From NCBI GenBank assembly GCA_048939995.1, contig JBHLOY010000002.1, positions 96,001 through 160,000 of the forward strand: 64,000 nucleotides of DNA, written 5' to 3'. The notes beneath the pieces were generated by a model that saw only the letters and a program-made list of their open reading frames with translations, made no database searches and was not told where the DNA came from. The first letter of the stretch is position 1. The number at the start of each line of letters is the position of its first letter. Below are positions 6,689 through 47,985 of the stretch, one piece after another. The translations under genes and the position numbers were made by a program. The stretch comes from Promethearchaeota archaeon (GTDB lineage Archaea; Asgardarchaeota; Lokiarchaeia; Sigyniarchaeales; SOKP01).

Positions 6689-8269
6689 ATGGTTGATAAA
6701 ATCATTCCTTTTTTAATAAATGTTGGTGAAGTTCTTCCAGCTCGAAGTAAAGCTACATTGTTAGATGAAATGGCAATGGCTTTAATTGAATGTATTAATC
6801 TATATGGGAAAGTACTCAAAAGATTAGGAAAAATTAACAAGATATCCATGTGTTTTTGGCCAGTACGTTTAATTCCATTAAATGAAACGAGAGCCTGTGT
6901 ATGTAGTTATTTATTAAATAAACAGGAAAAATTAATTGTTGGAAAATTTTCCCAAATGCCACCACCTCCGGGAAACATAATAAAGGGGGCAGATCCAGAA
7001 ACCTTCTTGAATGCCCTACAATCATATAATAGTAGTTATTTAAAAAAAAGTAAATATTTTAAGAGGGGTACAGTAATTCAAGAAGCACTGTTTAACGCTA
7101 GTGAGGTTGAGTACTTCAAGAATTTTTTCCTAAACCAATATGGAGTTGGAGCTTTCGGAGAACCTTATTTCACATTAGAAGGTGGTCCTATTCCTAAAAG
7201 TATCAATCAAGCGAAAATTATTCCCGAGATTCTTGAATATGTCTCCCAAAAAGACATTAGAATTCTTGATGATTTTGGTACTGAAATTACTAAATTATGT
7301 GATGTTTGGATTCAACGAGGAGCTCAAGAAGCTGATAAAATAAGGGGGAAAAAGATTGATACAAGTGAAGAGGAAAAACAATTAGCTATATTAAACAAAG
7401 AGCTAGAAGCTGAGAAAGCTCGAAAGATAGAAACCTCTCCAGAAGAATTAGTAAAATCAGGAAAATACAAAATAAATGATAAATCTAGTGACTTCTATAA
7501 TAATAATAACGCAATTAAAAATAGTATTGATCGTCTTAGAAATGCAATAAATAAAAATGACCTCTTTGAAGTAGAAGAATCTGTAAAAGATTTAGAGATT
7601 AAATATCAGGATTTAGGTAACTCAATAAATAGATATAATACCGAACTCGCTCAATTAAGAAAAAATATCCAGAGAGAAATAGCTGATTTAGAAAAAACAA
7701 AACAGCAGAAGATAAAAGAATTAGAAAAGAAAATATCAGAAGTAAAAAGTAAAATTGATTCAAAACATAGTGAATTAAGCAGTGATTTGACTAGCGCTGA
7801 AGATATTATAGCGAAAATTAAGGTAGAAAAACAATCTTGTTTAGATAATATCGAAACTGTAAAAGATAACGAAATGACAGGAGTTCAAGATTTCTTTAGA
7901 ACCTATACAATAGAAATTAAAACTCAAAACGTGGTTGTTGGGGTTCCAATGTTTATTTTTTATTTCATTGATCCTAATACTAGGCGAACTACTGAAAGAG
8001 CCCCAATATTTCCAATCCTCATTGAGAAAGGTAAGATGCAAAGAACAAAAGCTACAGATGCTTTTAGAAATAAATTAAGAGATTTAATGAATAAAGATAA
8101 CGCAATGGTAAATCTTGTAGAAAAAGGTGGTGAGAGTGGTAATCTTATGGATATTAAAAATCTTGACACTCAACTAGAAGATGCGATTAATGATTTGAGG
8201 ATACGAAAGATCCTTGGTAAAAAGGAAGCAGAAAAAGCAAAAGAGATTATTAATAATCTTGTATGGTAA
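6689..8269 (+). CDS. Hypothetical protein with a long central coiled coil
   Basis: 526 aa; E/K-rich heptads at about aa 200-400, flanked by globular segments (CFWPVRL; VGVPMFIFYF). Confidence 0.7.
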   Translation: MVDKIIPFLINVGEVLPARSKATLLDEMAMALIECINLYGKVLKRLGKINKISMCFWPVRLIPLNETRACVCSYLLNKQEKLIVGKFSQMPPPPGNIIKGADPETFLNALQSYNSSYLKKSKYFKRGTVIQEALFNASEVEYFKNFFLNQYGVGAFGEPYFTLEGGPIPKSINQAKIIPEILEYVSQKDIRILDDFGTEITKLCDVWIQRGAQEADKIRGKKIDTSEEEKQLAILNKELEAEKARKIETSPEELVKSGKYKINDKSSDFYNNNNAIKNSIDRLRNAINKNDLFEVEESVKDLEIKYQDLGNSINRYNTELAQLRKNIQREIADLEKTKQQKIKELEKKISEVKSKIDSKHSELSSDLTSAEDIIAKIKVEKQSCLDNIETVKDNEMTGVQDFFRTYTIEIKTQNVVVGVPMFIFYFIDPNTRRTTERAPIFPILIEKGKMQRTKATDAFRNKLRDLMNKDNAMVNLVEKGGESGNLMDIKNLDTQLEDAINDLRIRKILGKKEAEKAKEIINNLVW

Positions 8270-8307
8270 TTCATTTTTCAAACTCTCAAATTTTTTTCAA
8301 GAAAAGT

Positions 8308-8508
8308 CTATTCACCTATGTATTCCATAGTCGTATCACAACATATAGGTATAGCCTGATAACCACATCCCTCTGTATTGCAACAACATAATAAATATCC
8401 TTCTTTTACAATCATTGATTTGTCACAACACTTAGGAACTTCCTGTTCTCTTCCACAAATCTTACAAATTAGTCTTGGTATGTCTATATCACCTAATTTT
8501 TTACTCAT
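8308..8508 (-). CDS. Small Cys-rich metal-binding protein (two desulforedoxin-like modules)
   Basis: 10 Cys in 66 aa: CKICG..PKCCDKSM and CCC....CG..PICCDTTM. Confidence 0.7.
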   Translation of the reverse strand: MSKKLGDIDIPRLICKICGREQEVPKCCDKSMIVKEGYLLCCCNTEGCGYQAIPICCDTTMEYIGE

Positions 8509-8715
8509 AAAATAATAAAAAAAGAGCCTAATAATATGCTTCTGTTATCCAATATAAATTGTGATTTGCAACTCCCTTATGAATAAAAAATGAAAAAGCC
8601 CAAAATTTTATGAGATATTAGATTTATCAAAAATTTAAGAAAAAATTCATTTAAAACATTTCAATTATTATAAATTATATTTAGATGATTTAATAGAGAA
8701 AATTGGAGAAAATTC

Positions 8716-9966
8716 ATGGTTAATAAATTAACATTAAATAGAACTTTTCAGTTATATGAGGAAGCATTGAAATTAATCCCTGGAGCCATCTTAGGCATTC
8801 GTAGACCTTATAATTTTGTTGTAGGAGAATATCCGATATTCTTTGACACTGCCAAGGGAGGAAATGTGATTGATGTAGATGGAAATTCTTATATTGACAT
8901 GCTTTGCGCTTATGGACCTATTATAATAGGCCATCAGGAAAAAGAAATAGATGACGCGGTAATTCAACAGATAAAAGACAAAGGTTTTTGCATGTCCCTA
9001 ACTCAACCAATACAAAATCAATTAGCTAAGAAATTGAAAAATCTCATACCCTGTTGTGAAAAAATGGTATTTACAAAAATGGGCTCTGATGCTACAACAG
9101 CAGCGATTAGAGTGGCACGTGCCTATACTAAACGTACAATAATATTACATTGTGGTTATCATGGATGGCATGACTGGTCATGTGAAGTACATGGGGTTGC
9201 CGCAGGTATTCCTGAAAAACTCTATGAAGATATTCATGAATTTGAATTCAATAATCTTGCTCAACTGGAAAAATTGTTTAAAATGTATAAGAATCAGGTT
9301 GCAGGAGTCATTCTTACCCCTATAAATACACCGGGAGGAAGAGAGGTTGAAATGCCCATAAAAGGATTCTTAGAAGCAATCAGAGAATTAACTGCTGAAA
9401 ATGGAGCGCTTTTAATTTATGACGAGATAAGAACAGGTTTTAGGGTAGATATGGGTGGCGCACAGAAAATGTTCGAGGTAATACCTGATCTAGCTGCTTT
9501 TGGAAAGGCAATGGGAAATGGATACCCTATTAGCACACTTGTAGGTAAGGAAGAATTTATGGATGTACTTGTTGAAAAGGTTTTTTTAAGCTCAACCTTT
9601 TTTCCAAATAGTCTTTCTCAGATTGCCTCGCTTAAAACTATAGAAATTTTGCAACGTGAAAACGTTTTAAAGGATATAAGTGAAAAGGGTAAATATTTTG
9701 CAAAGAGGATAAAGGAAAGTATTGAAAGATACAATATTCCTTGCAACTTTACAGGAGAACCATGGATGCCATATATTACATTCACGCCTGATCCTAAATT
9801 TCTATATCGAAAATTAAGAGAAGAGTTTTATAGACAACTTATTAGACGAAAAGTTTTCTTACAACCTTTTCACCATGGTTATATTTGCTATCGTCATTCA
9901 TATGAGGATTTAGATTTTGCTGCAGACATGATCTCAGAATCAATGGCAGAATTAAAGAAAATGTAG
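8716..9966 (+). CDS. kat: Class III PLP aminotransferase, probable 3-aminobutyryl-CoA aminotransferase
   Basis: HemL-like fold (DEIRTGFR, FGKAMGNG, CGYHGWHDW) with GIRRPYNFVVGEYPIF; lies next to kce/kdd/kam genes and no kal is seen in the window. Confidence 0.7.
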   Translation: MVNKLTLNRTFQLYEEALKLIPGAILGIRRPYNFVVGEYPIFFDTAKGGNVIDVDGNSYIDMLCAYGPIIIGHQEKEIDDAVIQQIKDKGFCMSLTQPIQNQLAKKLKNLIPCCEKMVFTKMGSDATTAAIRVARAYTKRTIILHCGYHGWHDWSCEVHGVAAGIPEKLYEDIHEFEFNNLAQLEKLFKMYKNQVAGVILTPINTPGGREVEMPIKGFLEAIRELTAENGALLIYDEIRTGFRVDMGGAQKMFEVIPDLAAFGKAMGNGYPISTLVGKEEFMDVLVEKVFLSSTFFPNSLSQIASLKTIEILQRENVLKDISEKGKYFAKRIKESIERYNIPCNFTGEPWMPYITFTPDPKFLYRKLREEFYRQLIRRKVFLQPFHHGYICYRHSYEDLDFAADMISESMAELKKM

Positions 9967-10548
9967 GATTAAAGACATAATTGAAGTAGTTACAAAACCA
10001 ATAGTAGAAAAAGAGCTAATAATAGTTATTTTAAATTTAGAATATTTTTTCTTATAGGTAGTATCTAATTCTTCTTCTTTAATTGGAAAAGAGCTATCAG
10101 GGTTCCAAATCTCATCCATCCTAAAGCCTATAGCTCCAGAAGTTGGAGGTCCAACACTCAAATTATACATACGCACTGTAGAATGATCATAATATGGGAG
10201 CCTTGAATCTTTTGAGACTTTCATCCGATTGTAAATCTGACCAGAACTAGGACCTTTGAGGATTAGAGACGTCAGAAAGATTATTTCTGGTATCAGGATT
10301 ATTAAAGTTAAAGGAAGCACGATTGAAACAACAATACTACTAATTATAATTCCAGAATAAAAATAAAAAAAATAATTAATCTTAACTAAAATAGTGTAAA
10401 ATGTTCCTAAAACAAGACAGCTTACTGTAATTGCCTCAATTATAGTTAACAGAAAATTTTGGTGTGAAATAACTAAAAAGTAACCAAATATGACAATATG
10501 AATTGTTGTTAATATGAAAGTAAAAATTTTTTTTAAACTATTATTGAT
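9952..10548 (-). CDS. Membrane protein, paralog of 10575-11186 (start uncertain, probably non-canonical)
   Basis: The frame is open to beyond 10560 with no ATG/GTG/TTG upstream of 10320. The extension encodes VISHQNFLLTI, matching the paralog. Confidence 0.65.
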   Translation of the reverse strand: MNNSLKKIFTFILTTIHIVIFGYFLVISHQNFLLTIIEAITVSCLVLGTFYTILVKINYFFYFYSGIIISSIVVSIVLPLTLIILIPEIIFLTSLILKGPSSGQIYNRMKVSKDSRLPYYDHSTVRMYNLSVGPPTSGAIGFRMDEIWNPDSSFPIKEEELDTTYKKKYSKFKITIISSFSTIGFVTTSIMSLILHFL

Positions 10549-10574
10549 TCTTTGTACACCTGATGTTATTTTAA

Positions 10575-11186
10575 TTAAAATTTAAAATATATTATTAATG
10601 ATTCTATCGAACAAATTGAAAATCCTATGGTACAAATAAGGCTAATCATAGTTACTTTCAACTTGGAATACTTTTTCTTAATTGATATCACCTTTTCTTC
10701 ATCATCAATCGGTTTAGTACTATCTGGATTCCACACTTCATCCATTTTCACTCCTGGATATCCTGGTGCCATACCATACATACGTGTGACAGCTAGATCA
10801 TAATAAGGTAAATGTTGTTGTTTTGAAGCTTTCATTCTAGCATACCTCTGTCCTGGACTTGGACCTCTAAGAGTTAAAAGATATAGAAAAACTAGTTCTG
10901 GAATAAGTAATACTAAACTTATAGGAAGTAAGAAAGCAACAATTATAGCAGCAATTACTATTCCAATATAAAAATAAAAATAGTATGGATTCTTAACTAA
11001 GAAGGCATAAAATGCTCCAGAAACAAGAAAAAATAAAAAAACGGACTCAAAAATTGTTAATAAAAAATTCTGATGAGAAATAATTATAAAAAAGACAAAG
11101 AAAACAACATGCATCCCAATCAAAGTGAAAAAAGCAATAGTTTTAAGTAGTGAGATTTTATATTTTTTGTTTTGAGCCCTTATTAT
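10575..11186 (-). CDS. Membrane protein, paralog of 9952-10548
   Basis: Shared motifs ISHQNFLLTI, GPS.GQ.Y.RMK, LPYYD, MDE.WNPDS, KKKYSK. SD AGGTGAG is followed by in-frame ATA ATA. Confidence 0.7.
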   Translation of the reverse strand: MIRAQNKKYKISLLKTIAFFTLIGMHVVFFVFFIIISHQNFLLTIFESVFLFFLVSGAFYAFLVKNPYYFYFYIGIVIAAIIVAFLLPISLVLLIPELVFLYLLTLRGPSPGQRYARMKASKQQHLPYYDLAVTRMYGMAPGYPGVKMDEVWNPDSTKPIDDEEKVISIKKKYSKLKVTMISLICTIGFSICSIESLIIYFKF

Positions 11187-11316
11187 GACTCACCTTTTCT
11201 TTTTATATAATATATTTATATATAGAATAATATATATAACTAATCTCTACCATATAATAATATAGATAAGGATATATAAAAACTTTTCTAAATAATTAAT
11301 AATATTTGTATTTAGT

Positions 11317-12138
11317 ATGGAAAAATTAATTATTACGGCAGCAATATGTGGCGCAGAAGTCACAAAAGATCAAAATCCAAATATACCCTATTCAGTAAAA
11401 GAAATAGGAATAGAGGCGGAACAAGCTTTTCTGGCTGGAGCTAGTATTATTCATTTGCATGTACGAGAAGACGACGGAACCCCTACCCAGTCTAAGGATA
11501 GGTTTAAAGTTTGTATTAATGAAATTAAAAGAAGATGTCCCGATGTAATTATCATGCCTTCCACTGGAGGAGCTTTAGGTATGAATAATGAAGAGAGAAT
11601 TCAACCAATAATTCTTGAAAATATTGAAATGGCAAGTTTGGATTGTGGTTCTATGAATTTTGGTGGAGATGAGATTTTTGTTAATACTGAAAACACAATA
11701 AAATATTTTGCGACTGAGATGAAAAAGAAAAATATTAAACCCGAATTAGAATGTTTTGATAAAAGCATGATAGATATGGCTTTAAAGCTACGTGATGAAG
11801 GTTATATAAATAATCCAATGCATTTTAATTTAGTTTTAGGGGTAAATGGTGGTATTAAAGCTTCGCCGAGAGATCTAGTTTTTTTAATTGATAGTTTGCC
11901 TTTGGATTCAACATATACAGTAACAGGAATAGGTAAACATGAATTTCCAATGGCTATAATTAGTTTAACTATGGATGGTCATGTCCGAGTAGGTTTTGAA
12001 GATAATATATATATTTCCAGAGGTAAGCTAGCTGAATCTAATGCCCAGTTAGTCGAAAAGGTCGTAAGAATTGCTAATGAGCTTGGTAGAGATATTGCAT
12101 CTCCTTATGATGCCAGAAAAATTTTAGGAATATCTTAA
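11317..12138 (+). CDS. kce: 3-keto-5-aminohexanoate cleavage enzyme
   Basis: MEKLIITAAICGAE, IIHLHVR, STGG, HVRVGFEDN; adjacent to kdd. Confidence 0.93.
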   Translation: MEKLIITAAICGAEVTKDQNPNIPYSVKEIGIEAEQAFLAGASIIHLHVREDDGTPTQSKDRFKVCINEIKRRCPDVIIMPSTGGALGMNNEERIQPIILENIEMASLDCGSMNFGGDEIFVNTENTIKYFATEMKKKNIKPELECFDKSMIDMALKLRDEGYINNPMHFNLVLGVNGGIKASPRDLVFLIDSLPLDSTYTVTGIGKHEFPMAIISLTMDGHVRVGFEDNIYISRGKLAESNAQLVEKVVRIANELGRDIASPYDARKILGIS

Positions 12139-12223
12139 TTCAATTTAAAATTAAATAACGTGACTTCAATGTATAAATGATTAGCTAAATATTATGATTT
12201 ACTCATAAAAAGAAGTGTGAAAA

Positions 12224-13264
12224 ATGAAAAAGGGAAATAAATATGGAATACATAGAGTTATTGAACCGGTTGATTCTTTACCCCAAGCTGCAAATAAGCT
12301 ATCTAATGATATGGAATTATTTGACAATGAAATTTTAATAGATGTAAATTATTTAAATATTGATGCTGCTAGCTTTAAACAGATAAAGCATATTGCTAAT
12401 GATGATGTAGCAGTTATTGAAGAAATAATATTAGAAATTGTCCAAGAAAAAGGAAAGATGCAAAATCCTGTTACTGGTTCGGGAGGGATGCTGATTGGAA
12501 GAGTTAAAGAAATTGGAGAGGCTCTTAAAGATAAAGTTGACTTGAAAGTTGGAGATAAAATTGCTTCATTAGTCTCTCTTTCACTGACACCTCTTAAAAT
12601 AGATAAAATCATTAATATATATCCAGAAACTGATCGTGTTGATATTGAAGGGAAGGCAATATTATTTGAAAGCGGAATTTACGCTAAACTTCCAGAAGAT
12701 ATGAAAGATACATTAGCATTAGCAGTACTAGATGTTGCAGGTGCTCCAGCTCAAGTAAAAAAATTAGTAAGGGAAGGTGATACTGTGCTAATTCTTGGTG
12801 CGACTGGAAAATCTGGTCTTTTATGCTCATATGTAGCCAAAAAGATGGTCGGAAAAGAAGGAAAAGTAATAGGTCAAGCAAGAAATAAAGCAAGAGCAGG
12901 ATTTCTTACAGTAACAGAATTTTGTGATGAAATTATAATTGCAGATATCTTAAATCCCATAAATGTATTAGAAGAGATATTGAAAGTTAATAATAATCAA
13001 GAAGTAGATATCTCTTTTAATTGTTTAAGCATTGCAAATACTGAAATGTCAAGTATACTACCTGTACGAGAAGGGGGGATCGTATATTTCTTTTCTATGG
13101 CTACAAGTTTTACAAAAGCAGCTTTAGGTGCTGAAGGTATAGGAAAAGACGTTACAATGATAATCGGGAATGGTTATACAAAAGGACACGCTCAATTTGT
13201 TTTAGATCTACTCCGAGAATCTGAAGTTTTAAGAAAAATATTTGAACAAAAGTATCTAAAATAA
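12224..13264 (+). CDS. kdd: L-erythro-3,5-diaminohexanoate dehydrogenase
   Basis: GNKYGIHRVIEP, NPVTGSGGML, LDVAGAPAQ, AALGAEG. Confidence 0.93.
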   Translation: MKKGNKYGIHRVIEPVDSLPQAANKLSNDMELFDNEILIDVNYLNIDAASFKQIKHIANDDVAVIEEIILEIVQEKGKMQNPVTGSGGMLIGRVKEIGEALKDKVDLKVGDKIASLVSLSLTPLKIDKIINIYPETDRVDIEGKAILFESGIYAKLPEDMKDTLALAVLDVAGAPAQVKKLVREGDTVLILGATGKSGLLCSYVAKKMVGKEGKVIGQARNKARAGFLTVTEFCDEIIIADILNPINVLEEILKVNNNQEVDISFNCLSIANTEMSSILPVREGGIVYFFSMATSFTKAALGAEGIGKDVTMIIGNGYTKGHAQFVLDLLRESEVLRKIFEQKYLK

Positions 13265-13369
13265 AAAATTGAAACAATTAAACATTTTGAATAAAAAAAT
13301 AAAAAAAGATGAAGCGAAATCTAAATCCTAATCAAAAAGATTCAGATACAAATTAATTTAGATTTTTAA

Positions 13370-16722: not shown

Positions 16723-17751
16723 ATGGAACCTATAACGAAATTTATTGATAACATTACTAAATACTCTACAATATCAATAATCGGCCTCGCGAAAAATGTA
16801 AGCAAAACTACCACATTGAATCATTTAATAAAAAATTTGAAAGAATATAAACTAGGTTTAACATCTATAGGAAGAGACGGAGAAGAATATGATGTAATTA
16901 CAAACCTTCCAAAGCCTCGAATCTATGTTGAAGAAGGAACCTACTTTGCAACTGCCCAACAAAGTCTAGAGAATAGTGATATAAAATTTGAAGTCATTAA
17001 AAATACGGGAATAAGCACACCTATGGGGAAGGTCTTAATTTTAAGAGCACAAAGCTCTGGTTTAATTGAACTCGCAGGTCCTTCGATCAGTACCCAATTA
17101 CCTCCAATATGCAAGGAACTAAAAAGTCTTGGATGTGAAATAATTCTAATAGATGGAGCATTTGACAGGCGAACTTATGCTACACCTTTGATATCAGAGG
17201 CAACTATAATCTCAACCGGAGCATCAGTATCAGAAGATATGAAGAAAGTTGTTGATTTAACAATATTTACTCTAGAGTTGTTAACACTTCAAAATGAGAC
17301 TAATCATGAAATCTTAGGATTAGCGAAGAAAATTTTTGAAGATAATAATGTTGGGTTTATAAACAAAGATAATACTGTTAAAAAATTAGAACTACCAACT
17401 GCTTTGGATGCTGCAGAAGAAATTAGAGAAAATTTAGATGAAAATTCAAAATATGTTTTAATTAAGGGAGCACTTACAAACAAGTTATTAGGAGATTTGA
17501 TGAGAATAACAAATAAGTACAAAAATTTAACCATTTTAGTTGAAGATGGAACCAAGTTATTTTTAAGTAAAAATATATTTAATAAATTTCATAAGAAAGG
17601 AGGCTTCATAAAAGTATTGAATCCAATAAAGGTTATTGCAATAACTATCAACCCTACTTCTCCAGATGGATTGAATTTTAATAAAGAAAAATTTTTAAAA
17701 CTGTTAGAAGAAAAAGTTAAAGTTCCCGTTTATGATCTTGGACCAAGTTAG
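16723..17751 (+). CDS. kamB: KamB-like accessory protein of lysine 5,6-aminomutase
   Basis: GLAKNVSKTT, TSIGRDGE, IDGAFDR, STGA; located between kamA and kamD. Confidence 0.7.
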   Translation: MEPITKFIDNITKYSTISIIGLAKNVSKTTTLNHLIKNLKEYKLGLTSIGRDGEEYDVITNLPKPRIYVEEGTYFATAQQSLENSDIKFEVIKNTGISTPMGKVLILRAQSSGLIELAGPSISTQLPPICKELKSLGCEIILIDGAFDRRTYATPLISEATIISTGASVSEDMKKVVDLTIFTLELLTLQNETNHEILGLAKKIFEDNNVGFINKDNTVKKLELPTALDAAEEIRENLDENSKYVLIKGALTNKLLGDLMRITNKYKNLTILVEDGTKLFLSKNIFNKFHKKGGFIKVLNPIKVIAITINPTSPDGLNFNKEKFLKLLEEKVKVPVYDLGPS

Positions 17752-38147: not shown

Positions 38148-39042
38148 ATGACTCTTCATAATTTCACCACTGATGAGATTCCAGAGTTAGTAAAACAAGA
38201 TAATGAGATCTTTAAATACATCTCTGATGATAGAATTCTCCGAGTACTATTCGAGCAAAAAATTTTTGTCTTAAGAGAAATTCAAAAAAAAGCTATTGAG
38301 AATGGTTTGTTTTTCCGAAAATCATTCTTAATTTGTTCACCTTCTGGGAGCGGAAAGACATTAATAGGAGAGATTTGTGCGTTTCATAATATATTTAATA
38401 ATTTTGGGAAATCTATATACTTGGTTCCGTTTAAGGCATTAGCCACTGAGAAATATTATTATTTCAAAAAATATTATAGCCGTTTTAAAGTAAATGTTAC
38501 ATTATCAATTGGAGATTATGATGTGGATGATTTGAAATTAGAAAAAGCAGACCTGGTTATTACCACATACGAAAAATGCGACTCGATTCTCAGAAATTTC
38601 TATGATAAAGCGTGGATCCACGATATCTCTACAATCATCATAGATGAGATACATATAGTAGGAGAATCAGACCGTGGTCCACGATTGGAATCATTAATAG
38701 TGCGATTAAACGAGTTTCTTCACCACCCCCAATTTAGAGCGAATTATCACTTTTATTGGAATTATTGCGATCCACTTAAGTGATAATTATATCGAACTTC
38801 AAGACAAAATGATTCATATTGCAGAGATAGCTGAGACTTTGAAGATTCGGGTACATTATGGAATAAAAGAACAATTATTCGATTTAGTATTGCGTTTAGA
38901 TAATGTAGCGCTGGTGAGCGCGCGTATTATTTATAACGCGGGCTATCATACCGCTACACAGGTACGTAAAGAGAATCCTTATAAATTACATTGCAAAACC
39001 GGATTAGGAATAAATATATGTAGAAAAATCATAAAAAGCTAA
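38148..39042 (+). pseudogene. Ski2/Hel308-like SF2 helicase, internally deleted
   Basis: Q motif, SPSGSGKT, PFKALATE, TYEK and IIDEIH, then a frame switch near 38731 directly into the C-terminal region (NLERIITF..RVHYGIKEQL..NVALVSARIIYNAGY). RecA2, winged-helix and most of the ratchet domain are missing. Confidence 0.8.
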
Positions 39043-42355: not shown

Positions 42356-44680
42356 TTATAAATTTAGTTTTTTATGTAGTGATACTTTTTTTAGGTTTAT
42401 GAAATGTATCTTTTTTGATGTAATAAGAAGAACAACGAAAGGAACTCCGATCAAAAGACCTCCTAAAATGGTAATATGAATGAATTCGCTGCTAAAATCT
42501 CTAAAAAAGTTGATGTCTCTGTAATCAGGATTCATAAAATTTTTTTCTAAACTACAAACCCAATAAAAGCCTTCATAACACATTGTTGTCTTTTCAATAG
42601 ATTCATAAAATTCATACAAGACATTATCATATACGTTTAAAATGAGTGTTTGAATAGAGGGAATATCAAAATAAATACTTAGATTTAATAAATCGGAAAG
42701 CTGATAGCTATAGTATACATTTTTCAGATTGGTATAATTAAGATTATTATTCAGATAACTTTTTATTTTTGCAGAGTCTAATTCATATCGTCCCAGAGCT
42801 TTCAACATGTAGACTGCATAATAGGTATATTCTAAAATCAATTCAACCTTTCGAATGCTTCGAGGTGTGAAGAATATCTCTTTTTCTGTCTCATTAATCA
42901 GAAAGAGAATATACGAATTCAGAGCATCAACATCAAATGAGAATGCTGATGCATTATCTAACTGTTGATAGTCCGCGAGAAGTTCCAAACTACGAAATGC
43001 GTAATATGCATCAATAAAATCCACACATTCATCTTGATATTTTGGAGTAGCCATAATCATGAATGAGGGATTAGGTAGAAATCCTCCGTAATTAGTATAA
43101 TTTTCTTCTAAAAACTGGCTTTCAAGAATAGTAGCAATAACACTAGAGAGGTCATAACTCATCTCAAATATATGCAATTTAGATAATATTGCTAATGAGT
43201 TCAATGCCAAAAACGTGTTTTTTTGAGAGGTCATCCTCTCAATTCCCCAGATATATTTCTGATTCCCTATTGAAAAATATTCTATAGGAAATGAGCGGAA
43301 TACTGGAGCACTAAGATACATATTAATACTTCCTCGAAAGTTGTTATCTATTGTAAAACAGCTCTCTAGTGCAAGGTATAATTGAGTAAGAGGAAGATCA
43401 GATAACCTATCGAAGGTATCAAATGAACTAAGTAGGTAATTAATTGATTGAAGTGAAATATAATCCTCTGAAAGAAGTGTATATCCTCCCTGTTTAAAGT
43501 AGTAGTTCAAAGCGGTAGCGACTATGTTTTTCTCACTTTCTACCATAGAGAGTCGATTCATATTAACTAAGGATCGAACGATCTGGAAGGTATCTATTAG
43601 TTCATGGTATTGGATGTCAGTAGATTGGTCCCATATGCCCCATTCATTCTTATTGAGGAGGAGAAAAGTGATACTTTGCTCTTGGTCATGACCTGAAAAA
43701 CTTGTTAAATCAGCAAGTTCCAAAGCGAGTGATGTTCCTACAATGTTTAATTCATTATCGGATGTATGACTTTGAAATCCAGAAAAGTAGAAACTGGAGG
43801 AACTAGGTTCATATAAATTATCAAGGTAACTATGAAAATTGTTTATATTGATTGTATTAGTTTTTCCTATTATATCAAGAGTTTTTATACAATAATATGC
43901 TGTAACTACATTAGGTTCAATCATCATAAGAGCGCTCGTATTACCCCAACTGTTGTAAAATCCACCAAACCATTTTGGATCACTCATTGTCAACTGAAGA
44001 CTGGATATAAATGATGCAATTTTATCTTTTGCATTATTATAGAGGTCCCAATTATCTAATATATCAATTACCTGAGTAGCAAAAAAGGTATTATCTCCAG
44101 TAGGGTCTTTAAGATATTCAGGCATATTCACATCAAACGGCATTCCGATAAATCCACCAACCACAGGATTATAGCAATCCCATATAAAATCAACTATACC
44201 TATTTTGTCAATGAAGTGTAAGCCTCCCAGAATCTCTAAAGAAAGGACTGCATAGCTATTAATTTGGAGTAGAGATGATAATGGATATATAACTTTTCGG
44301 TTAGGGTTCGCATCAAGCCAACGCTTTGCATAAGAATCAATAAATAAACTCTCATTTGGATTATAAAACGACATTATATAGTCAATGAGCGCACTCGTGT
44401 TAACATCTTCTAGCTTATCGATCGCATTAAGTATATAAAGCGCATAATATGTGGCTTGAATAGAAGACTCATAAATTTGGGGGAAATATCCTTTATTCCC
44501 GTATTGTTCTAACTTTTTATTGTAAATTCTGTTAATTAAACCTGAATAACCTAGTGAAGAACTTGAAATATTTTGAGAATTTATCAAATCTATAGAATTA
44601 AAATCTGACATTGTAAAAATTAGAACATTGCTCGTAAAGAATATCACTACCAACAAGGAAAAAAACTTCTTTATATTCAT
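42356..44680 (-). CDS. Secreted, C-terminally anchored prenyltransferase/squalene-cyclase-repeat (alpha/alpha toroid) protein
   Basis: Signal peptide; repeats such as WDCYNPVVGGF, SLQ..FGGF, ESQ..YGGF, TYYAL, AYYCI; C-terminal TM. Confidence 0.75.
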   Translation of the reverse strand: MNIKKFFSLLVVIFFTSNVLIFTMSDFNSIDLINSQNISSSSLGYSGLINRIYNKKLEQYGNKGYFPQIYESSIQATYYALYILNAIDKLEDVNTSALIDYIMSFYNPNESLFIDSYAKRWLDANPNRKVIYPLSSLLQINSYAVLSLEILGGLHFIDKIGIVDFIWDCYNPVVGGFIGMPFDVNMPEYLKDPTGDNTFFATQVIDILDNWDLYNNAKDKIASFISSLQLTMSDPKWFGGFYNSWGNTSALMMIEPNVVTAYYCIKTLDIIGKTNTININNFHSYLDNLYEPSSSSFYFSGFQSHTSDNELNIVGTSLALELADLTSFSGHDQEQSITFLLLNKNEWGIWDQSTDIQYHELIDTFQIVRSLVNMNRLSMVESEKNIVATALNYYFKQGGYTLLSEDYISLQSINYLLSSFDTFDRLSDLPLTQLYLALESCFTIDNNFRGSINMYLSAPVFRSFPIEYFSIGNQKYIWGIERMTSQKNTFLALNSLAILSKLHIFEMSYDLSSVIATILESQFLEENYTNYGGFLPNPSFMIMATPKYQDECVDFIDAYYAFRSLELLADYQQLDNASAFSFDVDALNSYILFLINETEKEIFFTPRSIRKVELILEYTYYAVYMLKALGRYELDSAKIKSYLNNNLNYTNLKNVYYSYQLSDLLNLSIYFDIPSIQTLILNVYDNVLYEFYESIEKTTMCYEGFYWVCSLEKNFMNPDYRDINFFRDFSSEFIHITILGGLLIGVPFVVLLITSKKIHFINLKKVSLHKKLNL

Positions 44681-44773
44681 CTCTATATCATATTAATAAT
44701 TTCAATATATTGAAACAAAGATAATTGTCGATATATTTAAATAAAAAAAACAAAAAGTGGGTTTCAGAATTAT

Positions 44774-46021
44774 TTATGATATAATGAGTGGAGGCCCCTT
44801 TACTCTCCAGATTGCCATATTAAATAATTGATCTCGTTCTGTGTCAGGATCAGGAATTTCTTCTGATGGGTTCCTATTTTCAAATAATTCTTTGATCCTT
44901 CCTTTATCAATAGCTAATGATAATAGAATAGGTTTATTATGTAATTCCCTAAAAGCATAGAAATAGTACTCGATAGTGTCAAACGCATTGAATGTTTGCA
45001 TCCCATTTCCTAATTCAATCTCTATGATTTCATTATATTCAGGTTCTTCCTCAATTTCTTCCATAAGGGCCCCAATCTTGAGCATAACCTCTTTAAGTAA
45101 TTCCGCTGATTTTACTAGAGAGACAAATCCAGGAACTCGGAATCTCTCAAAAATTTTCCGTTCCACTTGTTTATGAATTGTACTCATACGAATATTCAAT
45201 TTTCTGCAGATTTCACTAACAGAAATTAGTTTATCAGGCAAACATAGAGCGGATATGGAGGTCACTACCCCCGCAATGACATTATCCTTCGTATTTTTGA
45301 TCATTTCCCAGAGCTTATCCAAAATTTTCTTTGATTGGTAATAGAAATACATACCTAATTCAAAATGTTCGGAAATTTCTAAAACTTTCTGGCATACATA
45401 TTCCATTCGATTCCTTTCTTTATATTTCGGTTTAAAATCGCATATTTGAAGCTTAAACGACTGGAAGTCCTTTTTTTCAATATTAGAGACTCCTAAAAGA
45501 GCTTGTTCATCGATAGGTTTACAGTCAAATTTATAGGTAAAATAGATTACTAAGGGAATTAGCTTCTCTGGGCTTCGATACTTGGTACCATGCACAATTT
45601 TCGAACGAATCTGAACGAAATTGCTAAATACTTTCTTCTTATCAGATTCAGGAAGAGAAAGTACCTCAAAAATTCGATTTATCTCTATCATAGCTCTTGT
45701 TTTCACATTTTCTTCATTTGATTTTATAGAATCAAGTCTGTTCAATCGATTTAATCGGTAGGATTGAGGATTTTGCATTCGCTCTTTTGTTGACCCTATC
45801 TGAGTTTTCCCTAATGGGGCATACTGTATAATATCTTGATTATATGGGATATGATATTCTAAAATCTGTAAATCAAGCATGATTCCACACTCTTTACAGA
45901 CATAACCCGACTCATTTTGGGTAACGTTTTCTGAACCACATATATCACACTGCAATGATGTGTATGTAGCTTTTTGATTAAATTGAGATTTATTTAAACT
46001 TGCCAATTTACTCACGATCAC
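44774..46021 (-). CDS. tfb: Divergent transcription factor B (TFIIB) paralog with an acidic C-terminal extension
   Basis: Zn ribbon CDICGS..YVCKECG, LNRLNRLD linker, two cyclin repeats, HTH SVSEICRKLNIRMSTIHKQV. Confidence 0.8.
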   Translation of the reverse strand: MIVSKLASLNKSQFNQKATYTSLQCDICGSENVTQNESGYVCKECGIMLDLQILEYHIPYNQDIIQYAPLGKTQIGSTKERMQNPQSYRLNRLNRLDSIKSNEENVKTRAMIEINRIFEVLSLPESDKKKVFSNFVQIRSKIVHGTKYRSPEKLIPLVIYFTYKFDCKPIDEQALLGVSNIEKKDFQSFKLQICDFKPKYKERNRMEYVCQKVLEISEHFELGMYFYYQSKKILDKLWEMIKNTKDNVIAGVVTSISALCLPDKLISVSEICRKLNIRMSTIHKQVERKIFERFRVPGFVSLVKSAELLKEVMLKIGALMEEIEEEPEYNEIIEIELGNGMQTFNAFDTIEYYFYAFRELHNKPILLSLAIDKGRIKELFENRNPSEEIPDPDTERDQLFNMAIWRVKGPPLIIS

Positions 46022-46177
46022 AAATTTTCATTTATTACTAAAGAACAGAAGATGAGGAGTGTTATTTAAAAATGTTACGGTTTGGATCGAAAAATAGGGA
46101 TAGAAGCTTTCTTCTCTCAAAGTACATTCTTCCTGTTTTTGATAAAAGTGTCGTTTTTCAATTTTACTGATCACTTC

Positions 46178-46195
46178 TTGGACACTATTGTCCAA
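46178..46195. promoter_or_regulatory. Inverted repeat, candidate operator between the divergent tfb and protease operons
   Basis: TTGGACA-CTAT-TGTCCAA, perfect 7-bp arms. Confidence 0.45.
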
Positions 46196-46221: not shown

Positions 46222-46239
46222 ATTTTTCCTTTATATATC
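46222..46239 (+). promoter_or_regulatory. Pyrimidine-rich BRE-TATA promoter (leaderless)
   Basis: ATTTTTCCTTTATATATC about 20 nt before ATG 46259. Confidence 0.65.
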
Positions 46240-46258: not shown

Positions 46259-47035
46259 ATGACATTAGTAGATCTGATCTTTTGGTTTTTCATAATATGG
46301 ATCATTTCTCTTATTTGTCAGGAGCTCTATATTAGAGTTAATGGTGTTGAGCGAGCAGTTTTCAATGTAATTGCATTTATAGGAGTATTTGTTCACGAAG
46401 TAGGACATATATTAATGTGTATTTTGTTTCGGGTGCCCTTTAATGGCTTTTCAGTTTACTTTCGTCAAGGAAATAAGATTTCTCCTCATGGTCATGTGAA
46501 ATTAAAAAATTGGAATAGAAATTCCTTCTTACAAGATTTTATGGTTACTTTTGGTCCACTGTTTCTCTCTACATGGGTATTTTTATTCTGCCTTGATCTG
46601 ATATGGGTACAAGGTGTAGATAGTCTTGTAGGGTTTATTTTACTAGGAATAATGATTTCTGTCATATTCGGAGCAAGTCCGTCTCGACCCGATTTAAATG
46701 GTATGTTTCATGTCTTCTCGAAAAACCCTTCCTACTCAACCTATCAAATTTTTTTAGCAGGATTATCAGTTATCATCGTCTGTCTAACAATCGATTTTTC
46801 TGTGATGATTTACTTACCAATGGAGCTGTTCTATTATATATTGGCTTTCTTTACAATAGTATTGGTCTATTACCTACTTAAGTACTCTTTTAGAGCTATT
46901 GGCTATGTTTTTAGACGAGTTTTTAATTTATCAATTTTGGACGCTAAAACAGTAACGCGTAGACGACATAGACCCCGCGTACGTGGACTTTATAGTTATA
47001 ATTATGGAAATAGACAGGAGGTAAAGAAAAAATGA
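46259..47035 (+). CDS. Membrane zinc metalloprotease (M50-like/DUF3267-like)
   Basis: GVFVHEVGH, FGPLF, SPSRPD; multiple TM helices. Confidence 0.75.
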   Translation: MTLVDLIFWFFIIWIISLICQELYIRVNGVERAVFNVIAFIGVFVHEVGHILMCILFRVPFNGFSVYFRQGNKISPHGHVKLKNWNRNSFLQDFMVTFGPLFLSTWVFLFCLDLIWVQGVDSLVGFILLGIMISVIFGASPSRPDLNGMFHVFSKNPSYSTYQIFLAGLSVIIVCLTIDFSVMIYLPMELFYYILAFFTIVLVYYLLKYSFRAIGYVFRRVFNLSILDAKTVTRRRHRPRVRGLYSYNYGNRQEVKKK

Positions 47036-47376
47036 AAATTTTATGTTATTTAATTCTCGTAGTTGCATTTATGATGTATTACCAAAAGAATCCAGTTTAT
47101 ACAATCATTATAATCGCAATTGGAATTGGAATTTATATTTTTTTTAAATCCAGAAAAGGAAAGGGAGGATTATTTAAAAAATTTATAGGACGAGATCGCT
47201 CTGAAACTGATGATCGTATGGATGATTTAATTACTCTTTTTATGCTTCAACAGATGTTTAATAATTCTATCCAAAATAAAAACCAAATTCAAGAGAAAGA
47301 AACCCCTAAGAATAAACGCAGTGAGGAATTAGAGAAAGAGAAACAAGAGATTCTTGAATTATTAGAGGGTGATTAA
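47032..47376 (+). CDS. Small membrane protein
   Basis: Two N-terminal TM helices and a charged tail; ATGA-type overlap with the upstream gene. Confidence 0.65.
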   Translation: MKILCYLILVVAFMMYYQKNPVYTIIIIAIGIGIYIFFKSRKGKGGLFKKFIGRDRSETDDRMDDLITLFMLQQMFNNSIQNKNQIQEKETPKNKRSEELEKEKQEILELLEGD

Positions 47377-47985
47377 GTGAAAAATATTTTTATGGAAATC
47401 CAATCATCGTTACATAAAAATTGTATTTTATCCCTATATGGTAAATCAGGAACCGGTAAAACTTCTTTTACATTATATTTTGTGGGCTACTTGATTACTA
47501 GATGTAAGCCTTATCAAGATCAGTGCGTATGGATACAAGCAAGTGAGTTTTTTCCATCTAGAAGGCTTGTTCAATTGTTTAAAGAGGATATTGAGATTTT
47601 ACGATATATTCGTAACAATATCTTTATTACTCCTTCTAAACACCCTTTTCTTTCATATCAAGAACAAAGTAGGTATTTATCTGAGATTGAAGGTAGAACT
47701 TTTCCACCTGAATTGAAGTACATCGTAATTGATAATATTTCTCATCACCTTCGCTTTGAGGTTTCTAGGTATCCCTCAATATCAGAAAAAGTAAAGTTAT
47801 TAAATTCATTCTATGAGTCTCAATTATTACCGTTAGTTTTATTTTGCCAAATAAATAATATTAATCTAATTCTAATTCATGAAGTATCATATCATCCCTC
47901 ATTAGAGCGGACAGTTCCTTTCTTTTATAAGTTATATAGTCGGATAGAGAAAAAAAAAAAAAAGAAAAAAATTAGCTCATCCTGA
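47377..47985 (+). CDS. RadB/RecA-superfamily P-loop ATPase, probably C-terminally truncated
   Basis: LYGKSGTGKT, WIQASEFFPSRRL, YIVIDNIS, LILIHE; ends in an A14-G-A7 tract. Confidence 0.7.
   Translation: MKNIFMEIQSSLHKNCILSLYGKSGTGKTSFTLYFVGYLITRCKPYQDQCVWIQASEFFPSRRLVQLFKEDIEILRYIRNNIFITPSKHPFLSYQEQSRYLSEIEGRTFPPELKYIVIDNISHHLRFEVSRYPSISEKVKLLNSFYESQLLPLVLFCQINNINLILIHEVSYHPSLERTVPFFYKLYSRIEKKKKKKKISSS

What the first reader, a model, noticed from the sequence alone, without database searches (positions are those of the whole stretch)
44774..46021. TFB paralog with a rewritten BRE-recognition helix and an acidic tail
Seen: the Zn ribbon and both cyclin repeats are retained. The HTH in repeat 2 (about 45163-45223) reads SVSEICRKLNIRMSTIHKQV, against the recalled canonical TQREVA..AGVTEVTIRNRY. 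The B-reader region is also divergent, and there is a ~95-aa acidic C-terminal extension (EEIEEEPEYNEIIEIE). Established: this helix contacts the BRE. Sulfolobales TFB3 is a precedent for a specialised TFB driving a DNA-damage/DNA-exchange programme, although TFB3 is truncated and this one is full length. Inference: altered promoter specificity, which independently fits the block-wide promoter motif.
Basis: partly seen in the sequence, partly recalled or inferred. Interest (0 to 1): 0.72.

Follow-up and report, generated by a model that had tools for sequence, protein, structure and literature searches.

The report
Divergent island-encoded TFB with rewritten BRE helix
A Loki-type Asgard archaeon encodes, inside an accessory recombination/membrane gene island, a complete but very divergent copy of the transcription initiation factor TFB whose DNA-reading helix has been rewritten. 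The island's genes carry a matching unusual promoter, so this may be a natural archaeal counterpart of an alternative sigma factor, though that has not been shown.

Summary
ORF 44774-46021 (-) is a full TFB-fold protein; its real start is probably TTG at 46006, giving 410 aa. It has a four-Cys zinc ribbon and both cyclin repeats (Z 16.8, rmsd 2.9 A to P. woesei TFB in its TBP/BRE complex; hhalign 98.6% to the genome's own TFBs).

It fails the Pfam TFIIB model and is separated by a long branch from all seven canonical TFBs of this genome. Those all read (V/I)TEVT(L/V)R(S/N/M)R in the BRE helix. This family reads IRMSTI(Q/H)xQV: both arginines are lost and one is gained. That helix is among the most conserved segments of the family.

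The "acidic tail" is a helix, an acidic linker and a conserved ~75-aa domain of no known fold ending in invariant KGPP.

The family (>340 clusters) was found only in one Loki-type GTDB family, sometimes in several copies or as pseudogenes. Its nearest outside relative is the TFIIB-like protein of Lokiarchaeal virus WyrdV1.

It sits in a conserved island whose genes use a rare TTTTTC(C)-TATA promoter, enriched ~7-9x. Its own promoter has a purine-rich BRE.

Altered promoter specificity is the best reading (about 0.55) but is unproven; one relative keeps the promoters without the gene. Earlier reports of this scan noted the same island on other genomes.

The parts
44774..46006 (-). Coding sequence of the divergent TFB-like protein (410 aa from TTG 46006; the open frame runs up to GTG 46021; stop codon 44774-44776)
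45887..45949 (-). Zinc ribbon, residues 25-45 (CxxC...CxxC, four invariant Cys)
45779..45862 (-). B-reader/B-linker equivalent, residues 54-81. It carries the family motifs LEYxRPYN and TQIGxxxER, which are conserved in the family but unlike the canonical GPEWRAF / GLSTxI
45422..45724 (-). Cyclin-like repeat 1, about residues 100-200. This is the only part that a sequence profile matches to TFIIB, Brf1 and Brf2
45131..45409 (-). Cyclin-like repeat 2, about residues 205-297; seen by structure and by profile-profile comparison only
45164..45223 (-). Helix-turn-helix of repeat 2, residues 267-286. Its recognition helix reads N-I-R-M-S-T-I-H-K-Q-V, against G-V-T-E-V-T-L-R-S-R-Y in the genome's canonical TFBs
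45068..45130 (-). Extra conserved helix after the core (GFxSLVKS..., residues 298-318)
45008..45067 (-). Acidic linker, residues 319-338, net charge -9; its length varies across the family
44777..45007 (-). Conserved C-terminal beta-rich domain, residues 339-415, of no recognised fold. It ends in the invariant K-G-P-P motif (DNA 44789-44800)
46016..46021 (-). Shine-Dalgarno GTGATC, 9 nt before the TTG start; conserved upstream of orthologues
46056..46080 (-). The gene's own promoter: purine-rich BRE (CCGTAACA), then TTTTTAAATA, then a conserved ACACTCC box. The type is conserved across loci (GGAAAAGG-TTTAAAA-aaACTCC)
46098..46118 (-). Degenerate copy of a palindrome (consensus GAGAAGAAGCCTTCTTCTC) found about 30 nt upstream of the TFB-like promoter in many loci; a candidate operator for whatever switches the gene on
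46223..46237 (+). Island-type promoter TTTTTCC-TTTATATA of the divergent M50-like gene. The TATA starts 29 nt before the ATG, and the element is conserved at the orthologous place in most of the 13 loci compared
44734..44754 (-). T-tract/TATA promoter of the downstream 774-aa toroid gene. It lacks the C here; orthologues carry TTTTTCTTTAAATA

Best explanation
The gene encodes a complete but highly divergent member of the TFB/TFIIB family. It belongs to an accessory gene island of Loki-type (Promethearchaeia) archaea.

Proposed mechanism (inferred):
1. A host TFB transcribes the gene from its ordinary purine-rich BRE/TATA promoter. An unknown regulator probably controls this through the conserved upstream palindrome.
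2. The protein binds host TBP on the island's TATA boxes.
3. Its rewritten helix-turn-helix reads the pyrimidine element TTTTTC(C), which occupies the BRE position.
4. Its zinc ribbon and linker recruit RNA polymerase.
5. The island's mostly leaderless units are then switched on together. These encode Hel308-, RadA/RadB- and FEN1-like paralogues, an HhH membrane operon, an M50-like protease and a toroid surface protein.

This would work like an alternative sigma factor.

Shown here: the fold, the divergence, the conserved rewritten helix, the conserved synteny, and the enrichment, position and conservation of the promoter element.

Inferred: binding to TBP, RNAP and the element, and the two-tier cascade.
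For: Architecture:
- Four invariant ribbon Cys.
- Two cyclin repeats superpose on P. woesei TFB in its TBP/BRE/TATA complex: Z 16.8, rmsd 2.9 A, 197/201 residues.
- hhalign to the genome's own TFBs: 98.6%, E 5e-16, from ribbon to recognition helix.
- The linker region keeps family-invariant residues T73, G76, E80 and R81.

Recognition helix:
- All 7 canonical TFBs of the genome share (V/I)TEVT(L/V)R(S/N/M)R. This family has IRMSTI(Q/H)xQV at the aligned columns.
- Residues 275-286 are the fourth most conserved 12-mer of the family: 0.74 against a mean of 0.51.
- The changed positions lie in the turn and at the N-terminal end of helix 3, where HTH recognition resides (PMC4581349).

Promoter element:
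- TTTTTC{1,2}TTT..A.A occurs 7 times in the 18-kb island against 0.79 expected from the genome rate.
- It occurs 111 times in 390 kb around 20 homologues from other genomes, or 5.2 per 18.4 kb.
- It sits at the orthologous place before the M50-like gene in most of the 13 loci compared, although those proteins are only ~30% identical.
- The TATA-to-start distance peaks sharply at 29-31 nt.
- Only 4 of 527 TATA-bearing upstream regions genome-wide have it.
- In G207, 11 of 47 sites lie within 25 kb of its three gene copies.
- Sites elsewhere precede RadA, FEN1-like and OB-fold paralogues.

Own promoter: it lacks the element and has a conserved purine-rich BRE.
Against: - There are no binding, expression or transcription-start data.
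- G264 (same genus, 99% complete) has the island with six motif sites. Its M50-like and toroid genes are adjacent, with no TFB-like gene there or elsewhere in the assembly.
- Four further relatives lack the gene in their assemblies. At least one (G231) does so because a contig breaks next to where the gene should be.
- Within the genus, motif counts do not track presence of the gene: G000 has 20, and genomes without the gene have 20-25.
- WyrdV1, which encodes a relative, does not use the element.
- The canonical B-reader and B-linker motifs are not kept, so RNAP engagement is unproven.
- Gene copies with internal stops exist, so the gene is dispensable.
Confidence: 0.55

Rival explanations
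1. It is a TFB-derived regulator rather than a promoter-selective initiation factor. It could be a co-activator working with a canonical TFB (as Sulfolobales TFB3 does), or a decoy or repressor that occupies TBP/TATA or RNAP. The T-tract-C element would then be read by another island factor, or would be a poor BRE that keeps the promoters silent.
For: The canonical B-reader and B-linker motifs are replaced. The extra C-terminal domain and acidic linker suggest partner binding or autoinhibition. G264 keeps the motif promoters without the gene. The viral relative WyrdV1 lacks the ribbon and so cannot act as a normal TFB.
Against: The ribbon Cys and the linker residues are invariant, and the recognition helix is among the best-conserved segments, which points to sequence-specific DNA reading. 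No other TFB of the genome has an altered helix that could read the element.
Confidence: 0.22
2. It is a gene of viral or mobile-element origin. It serves the element itself by taking over host transcription, or by an Orc6-like DNA-binding role in replication or partition, rather than driving a cellular programme.
For: Its nearest relative outside the family is the TFIIB-like protein of Lokiarchaeota virus WyrdV1: BLASTP 1e-12, while that protein does not match canonical TFBs. Asgard viruses and MGEs are known to encode TFBs (10.1101/2021.07.29.453957, PMC13700489). The family is patchy, multi-copy and sometimes pseudogenised. Distant relatives carry transposase-type HTH domains. Orc6 appears among weak matches.
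Against: No hit in plasmid records, and the IMG/VR scan, which reaches close relatives only, found none. No integrase, capsid or replication module was seen beside it in the loci examined. Gene order around it is conserved across genera, as for an inherited island. The motif sites are spaced like promoters, not like an origin.
Confidence: 0.13
3. It is an ordinary, redundant housekeeping TFB paralogue with unchanged specificity.
For: The genome already has seven TFBs, so paralogy is common here. JGI names some homologues TFIIB/Brf1.
Against: No PF00382 hit even at E 10. NCBIfam scores 23 bits against a cut-off of 384. It is separated from all canonical TFBs by about 3.8 substitutions per site. 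Both recognition-helix arginines are replaced. It was found in only one GTDB family of 30 sampled.
Confidence: 0.03

Closest known systems
Canonical archaeal TFB (e.g. Pyrococcus woesei TFB, PDB 1D3U/1AIS; the seven TFBs of this genome)
   Same: [quoted passage not shown] The core superposes at rmsd 2.9 A, and profile-profile probability is 98.6%.
   Different: About 16% identity, and it fails the Pfam and NCBIfam models. The B-reader/linker motifs are replaced. The recognition helix is rewritten: both Arg are lost and one Arg is gained. It has about 115 extra C-terminal residues forming a new domain. It is accessory, limited to one family, and sometimes multi-copy.
Sulfolobales TFB3 (DNA-damage programme: Ups pili, Ced importer) and TFB2 (cell-cycle waves, 10.64898/2026.09.06.749720)
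   Same: A TFB paralogue dedicated to a sub-programme. The programme here also centres on recombination and membrane genes.
   Different: TFB3 is truncated and acts with TFB1 rather than reading DNA itself (my knowledge, not tested here). This protein is full length, has its own conserved DNA-reading helix, and comes with a distinct promoter element.
TFIIB-like protein of Lokiarchaeota virus WyrdV1 (QYW08131, MZ666939)
   Same: It belongs to the same divergent clade: BLASTP 1e-12 over residues 58-285, with shared IPY and C..LGI..ST motifs. It is not recognisable as a canonical TFB by hhalign.
   Different: It is 240 aa, with no zinc ribbon and no C-terminal domain. Its helix residues differ (ITQSTVFRR). 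The virus uses CGAAAAGC-type promoters, not the T-tract-C element.
Eukaryotic TFIIB-related factors Brf1, Brf2 and Rrn7/TAF1B
   Same: The architecture is ribbon, two cyclin repeats and a C-terminal extension. Brf1 and Brf2 are among the profile and fold matches.
   Different: The C-terminal domain shows no similarity to the Brf extensions. The narrow distribution and the viral kinship argue against direct ancestry.
Bacterial alternative (ECF or phage-encoded) sigma factors
   Same: By analogy only: a dedicated initiation factor, made from a housekeeping-type promoter, that redirects RNAP to a private promoter class. A site-2-protease-like gene lies next to it.
   Different: It is not an orthologous system. 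No anti-factor has been shown.

Membership tests
TFB/TFIIB family | N-terminal zinc ribbon (CxxC...CxxC) | tested here: met
   C25, C28, C42 and C45 are invariant in 49 sequences. Zn_Ribbon_TF scores 20 bits, below its cut-off. The ribbon aligns to TFB by hhalign.
TFB/TFIIB family | Two cyclin-like repeats forming the core domain | tested here: met
   1d3u_B gives Z 16.8, rmsd 2.9 A, 197/201 residues. Foldseek's top 40 are all TFIIB, TFB, Brf1 or Brf2. hhalign gives 98.6%.
TFB/TFIIB family | Scores above the curated sequence models (PF00382, NF001658) | tested here: not met
   No PF00382 hit at E<=1 on the protein, or at E<=10 in the genome search. NF001658 scores 22.9 bits against a cut-off of 384.
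TFB/TFIIB family | Canonical B-reader and B-linker motifs | tested here: inconclusive
   The region aligns in register and is conserved within the family (LEYxRPYN, TQIGxxxER), but it shares no canonical motif beyond a T.I-like core.
TFB/TFIIB family | Canonical BRE-recognition helix (VTEVTxRxR) | tested here: not met
   The aligned columns read IRMSTI(Q/H)xQV. All 7 genome TFBs keep the canonical text.
TFB/TFIIB family | Forms a TBP-DNA ternary complex and recruits RNAP | not testable with these tools
   This needs biochemistry or complex modelling.
Sulfolobales TFB3-type co-activator | Truncated protein lacking a DNA-binding core | tested here: not met
   The core is full length and has a conserved HTH.
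Brf1/Brf2-type TFIIB-related factor | C-terminal extension homologous to the Brf TBP-anchoring regions | tested here: inconclusive
   Profile matches to Brf1 and Brf2 cover only the ribbon and cyclin 1. The C-terminal domain model (pLDDT 66) has a best Z of 4.4, and that match is not to Brf.
WyrdV1-type viral TFIIB-like proteins | Direct sequence similarity across the linker, both repeats and the HTH | tested here: met
   BLASTP 1e-12, 23% identity, residues 58-285. In the tree it falls inside the divergent clade, on a long branch.

The most novel reading that the evidence does not exclude
The protein is the output of a membrane-gated switch that resembles the bacterial ECF-sigma / anti-sigma / site-2-protease circuit. 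Its conserved C-terminal KGPP domain would be held by the co-conserved 2-TM 114-aa protein. Cleavage by the adjacent M50-like protease would release it, after which it reprogrammes RNAP to the TTTTTC(C)-TATA promoters of a DNA-exchange/recombination island. This would be the first archaeal initiation factor controlled by regulated intramembrane proteolysis, with a natural swap of BRE code.
Probability: 0.1. Interest if true: 0.9.

Novelty: new variant of a known kind. Interest (0 to 1): 0.68.

Why it matters
Archaea often carry several TFBs, and it has long been proposed that these act like sigma factors. Clear cases of a TFB with its own BRE code and its own promoter class are rare.

Here the rewritten, conserved recognition helix and a rare, conserved element at the BRE position occur together across many genomes. 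That gives a directly testable pair: one protein and two short promoter types.

[quoted passage not shown] This bears on how these archaea exchange and recombine DNA.

The family also links cellular and viral (WyrdV1) TFB-like proteins. It adds an undescribed C-terminal domain to the TFIIB superfamily, which current Pfam and NCBIfam models miss.

Tried and rejected
Context was rebuilt with the genome search and the fetch from genomes instead.
- The search for related loci with the 49-row alignment had no stretch conserved enough to search with.
- The IMG/VR scan with the single protein found nothing.
- Plasmid records gave no hit.
- PHROGs gave nothing useful.
- phmmer against PDB sequences found nothing; the profile was needed.
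- C-terminal domain: the AF2 model has only pLDDT 66. The wide VIA search gave a best Z of 4.4; Pur-alpha repeats recur at ranks 1, 5, 22, 30 and 43 but are not significant. The ESM Atlas gave TM<0.5. The fold therefore remains unassigned.
- The crude genome-wide TATA-anchored logo showed no clear canonical BRE, because AT-rich DNA gives spurious TATA matches. Only the counts were used.
- WyrdV1 was scanned for the island element and none was found.
- The window's palindrome TTGGACACTATTGTCCAA is not conserved in other loci.
- Two unannotated ORFs in the G264 island were tested as hidden TFB-like genes; neither is one.
- No covariation between helix variants and motif variants could be exploited, because both are nearly invariant in the loci in hand.
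- dN/dS was not computed, as synonymous sites are likely saturated at 72-78% protein identity.

Full report
**What is there**

The minus strand carries an open frame at 44774-46021 (415 aa from GTG). Four lines of evidence place the real start at TTG 46006, giving 410 aa beginning M-A-S-L-N-K:
- Upstream of orthologues in 20 loci there is a conserved GTGATC Shine-Dalgarno about 8-9 nt before the start, and in the window the GTG is part of that element.
- The family alignment begins MA(T/S).
- The database representative is 410 aa.
- The ESM Atlas record starts at my residue 6.

**Is it a TFB?**

Curated models say almost nothing. Pfam gives only sub-threshold zinc-ribbon hits and no TFIIB repeat. 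The genome-wide PF00382 search finds seven other TFBs but not this gene, even at E 10. NCBIfam's TFIIB model scores 23 bits against a cut-off of 384. phmmer against PDB sequences finds nothing.

More sensitive methods are clear:
- A profile of 49 family members hits the first cyclin repeat of TFIIB (E 5e-6), then Brf1 and Brf2.
- hhalign against six canonical TFBs of the same genome gives 98.6% probability, E 5e-16, over 264 columns from the ribbon to the recognition helix.
- The AlphaFold2 model has pLDDT above 90 for residues 100-320.
- Foldseek's top 40 hits are all TFIIB, TFB, Brf1 or Brf2.
- VIA-align gives Z 16.8, rmsd 2.9 A and 197 of 201 residues against P. woesei TFB in its TBP/BRE/TATA complex.

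**How it differs from ordinary TFBs**

The seven canonical TFBs of this genome all read (V/I)TEVT(L/V)R(S/N/M)R in the recognition helix of repeat 2. At the aligned columns this protein reads I-R-M-S-T-I-H-K-Q-V, and the family consensus is I-R-M-S-T-I-Q-x-Q-V. Both invariant arginines are gone, and an arginine appears where the canonical proteins have threonine. These positions lie in the turn and at the N-terminal end of helix 3, where HTH recognition of the upstream BRE resides (PMC4581349).

The new helix is not decaying. Residues 275-286 are the fourth most conserved 12-residue stretch of the family, at 0.74 against a mean of 0.51, level with the ribbon.

The B-reader/linker aligns in register. 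It carries family motifs of its own (LEYxRPYN, TQIGxxxER) in place of the canonical ones.

After the core come 127 more residues:
- a conserved helix (GFxSLVKS...);
- an acidic linker of variable length (net -9 here);
- a conserved beta-rich domain of about 75 residues that ends in an invariant K-G-P-P.

That last domain has no convincing match. The best Z is 4.4; Pur-alpha repeats recur among the weak hits, and the Atlas gives nothing.

**Family and distribution**

More than 340 clusters at 50% identity match, and almost all are 400-445 aa with the same architecture.

In 301 genomes sampled across the phylum, strong matches occur only in the window's own GTDB family. Other Asgard families give only about 50-bit hits to their ordinary 300-aa TFBs. 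Named records are Promethearchaeota/-ia MAGs, plus a few MAGs from one study that carry other Asgard labels.

Some genomes hold three or four full copies. Others have fragments or copies with internal stops, and a few lack the gene.

In a tree, the seven canonical TFBs form one clade. It is separated by about 3.8 substitutions per site from a clade holding this family, more distant relatives and the WyrdV1 protein. Some of the distant relatives have transposase-type HTH domains in place of the ribbon.

The only hit among phage records is the TFIIB-like protein of Lokiarchaeota virus WyrdV1. It matches at BLASTP 1e-12 over residues 58-285, yet hhalign does not recognise it as a canonical TFB. 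TFB genes on Asgard viruses and MGEs are known in general. I found no description of this cellular family.

**Context**

tblastn of the window's ORFs against +-10 kb around 20 homologues shows a conserved block:
- a 192-aa protein;
- a 774-aa membrane-anchored prenyltransferase-like toroid protein (13/20 loci);
- the TFB-like gene;
- divergently, an M50-like membrane protein (13/20), a 2-TM 114-aa protein (10/20), a RadB/KaiC-like ATPase (10/20) and a 126-aa protein (10/20);
- further out, a Hel308-like helicase and an HhH membrane operon.

No TBP gene lies in the island. The genome has one canonical TBP, elsewhere.

**The promoter element**

- TTTTTC(C)TTT..A.A occurs 161 times in the genome (0.79 per 18.4 kb) but 7 times in the island.
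- It occurs 111 times in the 390 kb around the 20 homologues, or 5.2 per 18.4 kb.
- It sits at the orthologous place before the M50-like gene in most of the 13 loci compared, although those proteins share only about 30% identity.
- The distance from the start of the TATA to the start codon peaks sharply at 29-31 nt, with a second peak at 53-57. This is what promoters of leaderless and short-leader mRNAs give.
- Genome-wide, only 4 of 527 TATA-bearing upstream regions have TTTTC(C) abutting the TATA, against 39 with a purine-rich RAAA element.
- In G207, 11 of its 47 14-mer sites lie within 25 kb of its three gene copies.
- Sites elsewhere precede RadA paralogues in two genomes, a FEN1/XPG-like nuclease and an OB-fold protein. 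They also precede a few unrelated genes.

The TFB-like gene itself never carries the element. Its promoter is conserved and of the ordinary type: a purine-rich BRE, TTTAAAA, an ACTCC box, and a 5' leader with a Shine-Dalgarno. A palindrome (GAGAAGAAGCCTTCTTCTC) lies about 30 nt further upstream in many loci.

**Reading**

The simplest account is a two-tier switch. Host machinery makes this factor, and the factor, with host TBP and RNAP, opens the island's private promoter class.

What is shown: the fold, the conserved rewritten helix, the synteny, and the enrichment, spacing and conservation of the element.

What is inferred: that this protein binds TBP and RNAP and reads TTTTTC(C). A contact between the gained arginine and the single C:G pair is speculation.

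**Evidence against**

G264 is in the same genus and is 99% complete. It has the island with six motif sites, but its M50-like and toroid genes are adjacent and divergent with only 205 bp between them. No gene of this family is anywhere in its assembly, and two nearby unannotated ORFs are not hidden relatives.

Four other relatives also lack the gene in their assemblies. In G231 the contig breaks inside the toroid gene, exactly where the TFB-like gene should follow, so some absences are assembly artefacts.

Within the genus, motif counts do not differ with the gene's presence.

WyrdV1 does not use the element.

Given these points, I put the sigma-like reading at about 0.55, a non-initiating regulator at about 0.2, a selfish-element role at about 0.13, and an ordinary housekeeping TFB at about 0.03.

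**Relation to earlier work in this scan**

Notes and follow-up reports on at least nine other genomes describe the same island with a "private TFB" and a rare promoter. Here I re-derived the promoter statistics and the synteny independently.

New in this report:
- the start codon;
- the residue-level helix comparison;
- the C-terminal domain;
- the WyrdV1 kinship;
- the gene's own promoter and palindrome;
- the G264 counter-example.

Noticed in passing
window 46098-46118 (-); L033, L037, L043, L044, L046, L048 upstream of the TFB-like gene: A near-perfect palindrome (consensus GAGAAGAAGCCTTCTTCTC) lies about 30 nt upstream of the BRE/TATA of the TFB-like gene in many loci. The window's copy is degenerate. 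It is a candidate operator for the regulator that switches the factor on.
   Followed up: partly
window 46171-46188: Perfect inverted repeat TTGGACA-N4-TGTCCAA between the divergent TFB-like and M50-like promoters. It is not present at the same place in 12 other loci.
   Followed up: yes
window 46259-47985 (+): An M50-like membrane protein (HEVGH motif), a 114-aa 2-TM protein and a RadB/KaiC-like ATPase form a tight unit. The first stop and start overlap (ATGA at 47032-47035), and the third gene starts right after the second stop. The unit is conserved next to the TFB-like gene in 10-13 of 20 loci.
   Followed up: partly
window 42356-44680 (-): A 774-aa protein with an N-terminal signal/TM segment, a prenyltransferase-type alpha/alpha-toroid domain and a C-terminal TM anchor lies directly downstream of the TFB-like gene. 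It is conserved in 13/20 loci, at 32-71% identity.
   Followed up: partly
L144 (G264:C31) 8204-12125: An island variant in a 99%-complete genome of the same genus. The M50-like gene and a longer (986-aa) toroid gene are divergent neighbours 205 bp apart, with no TFB-like gene. The T-tract-C promoters persist before the Hel308-like gene (full length, 846 aa) and before small genes.
   Followed up: yes
L035 (G207:C9) 11907-13340; L055 (G276:C46) 11101-12192 and 16771-17619: RadA/Rad51 paralogues sit directly behind island-type promoters in two other genomes; one has its HhH domain at the C-terminus instead of the N-terminus. A FEN1/XPG-like nuclease does so in one of them. In L035 the promoter element is doubled.
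   Followed up: partly
proteins P0252, P0255; G174:C27:8062-9039; G225 ORFs of 501-536 aa: Distant relatives of the family have the TFB-like core without a ribbon. Their N-termini carry transposase-type HTH domains (HTH_23, Sleeping Beauty HTH). One 587-aa frame matches the core twice.
   Followed up: no
G000 C11:493159-493374 (outside the window): A single TBP repeat lies inside a 431-aa frame, about 4 kb from a canonical TFB gene (C11:497526-498467). It is additional to the one canonical two-repeat TBP on C37.
   Followed up: no
L059 (WyrdV1, MZ666939) upstream of 1112, 2194, 2591: Three early viral units share a nearly identical ~45-nt upstream sequence that contains CGAAAAGC-AATTAATA, a purine-BRE/TATA promoter.
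   Followed up: no
window 38148-38783 (+): The Hel308-like frame here is only 211 aa (DEAD domain only), whereas orthologues in other loci are full length (846 aa in L144). This island copy is eroded even though the TFB-like gene is intact.
   Followed up: partly
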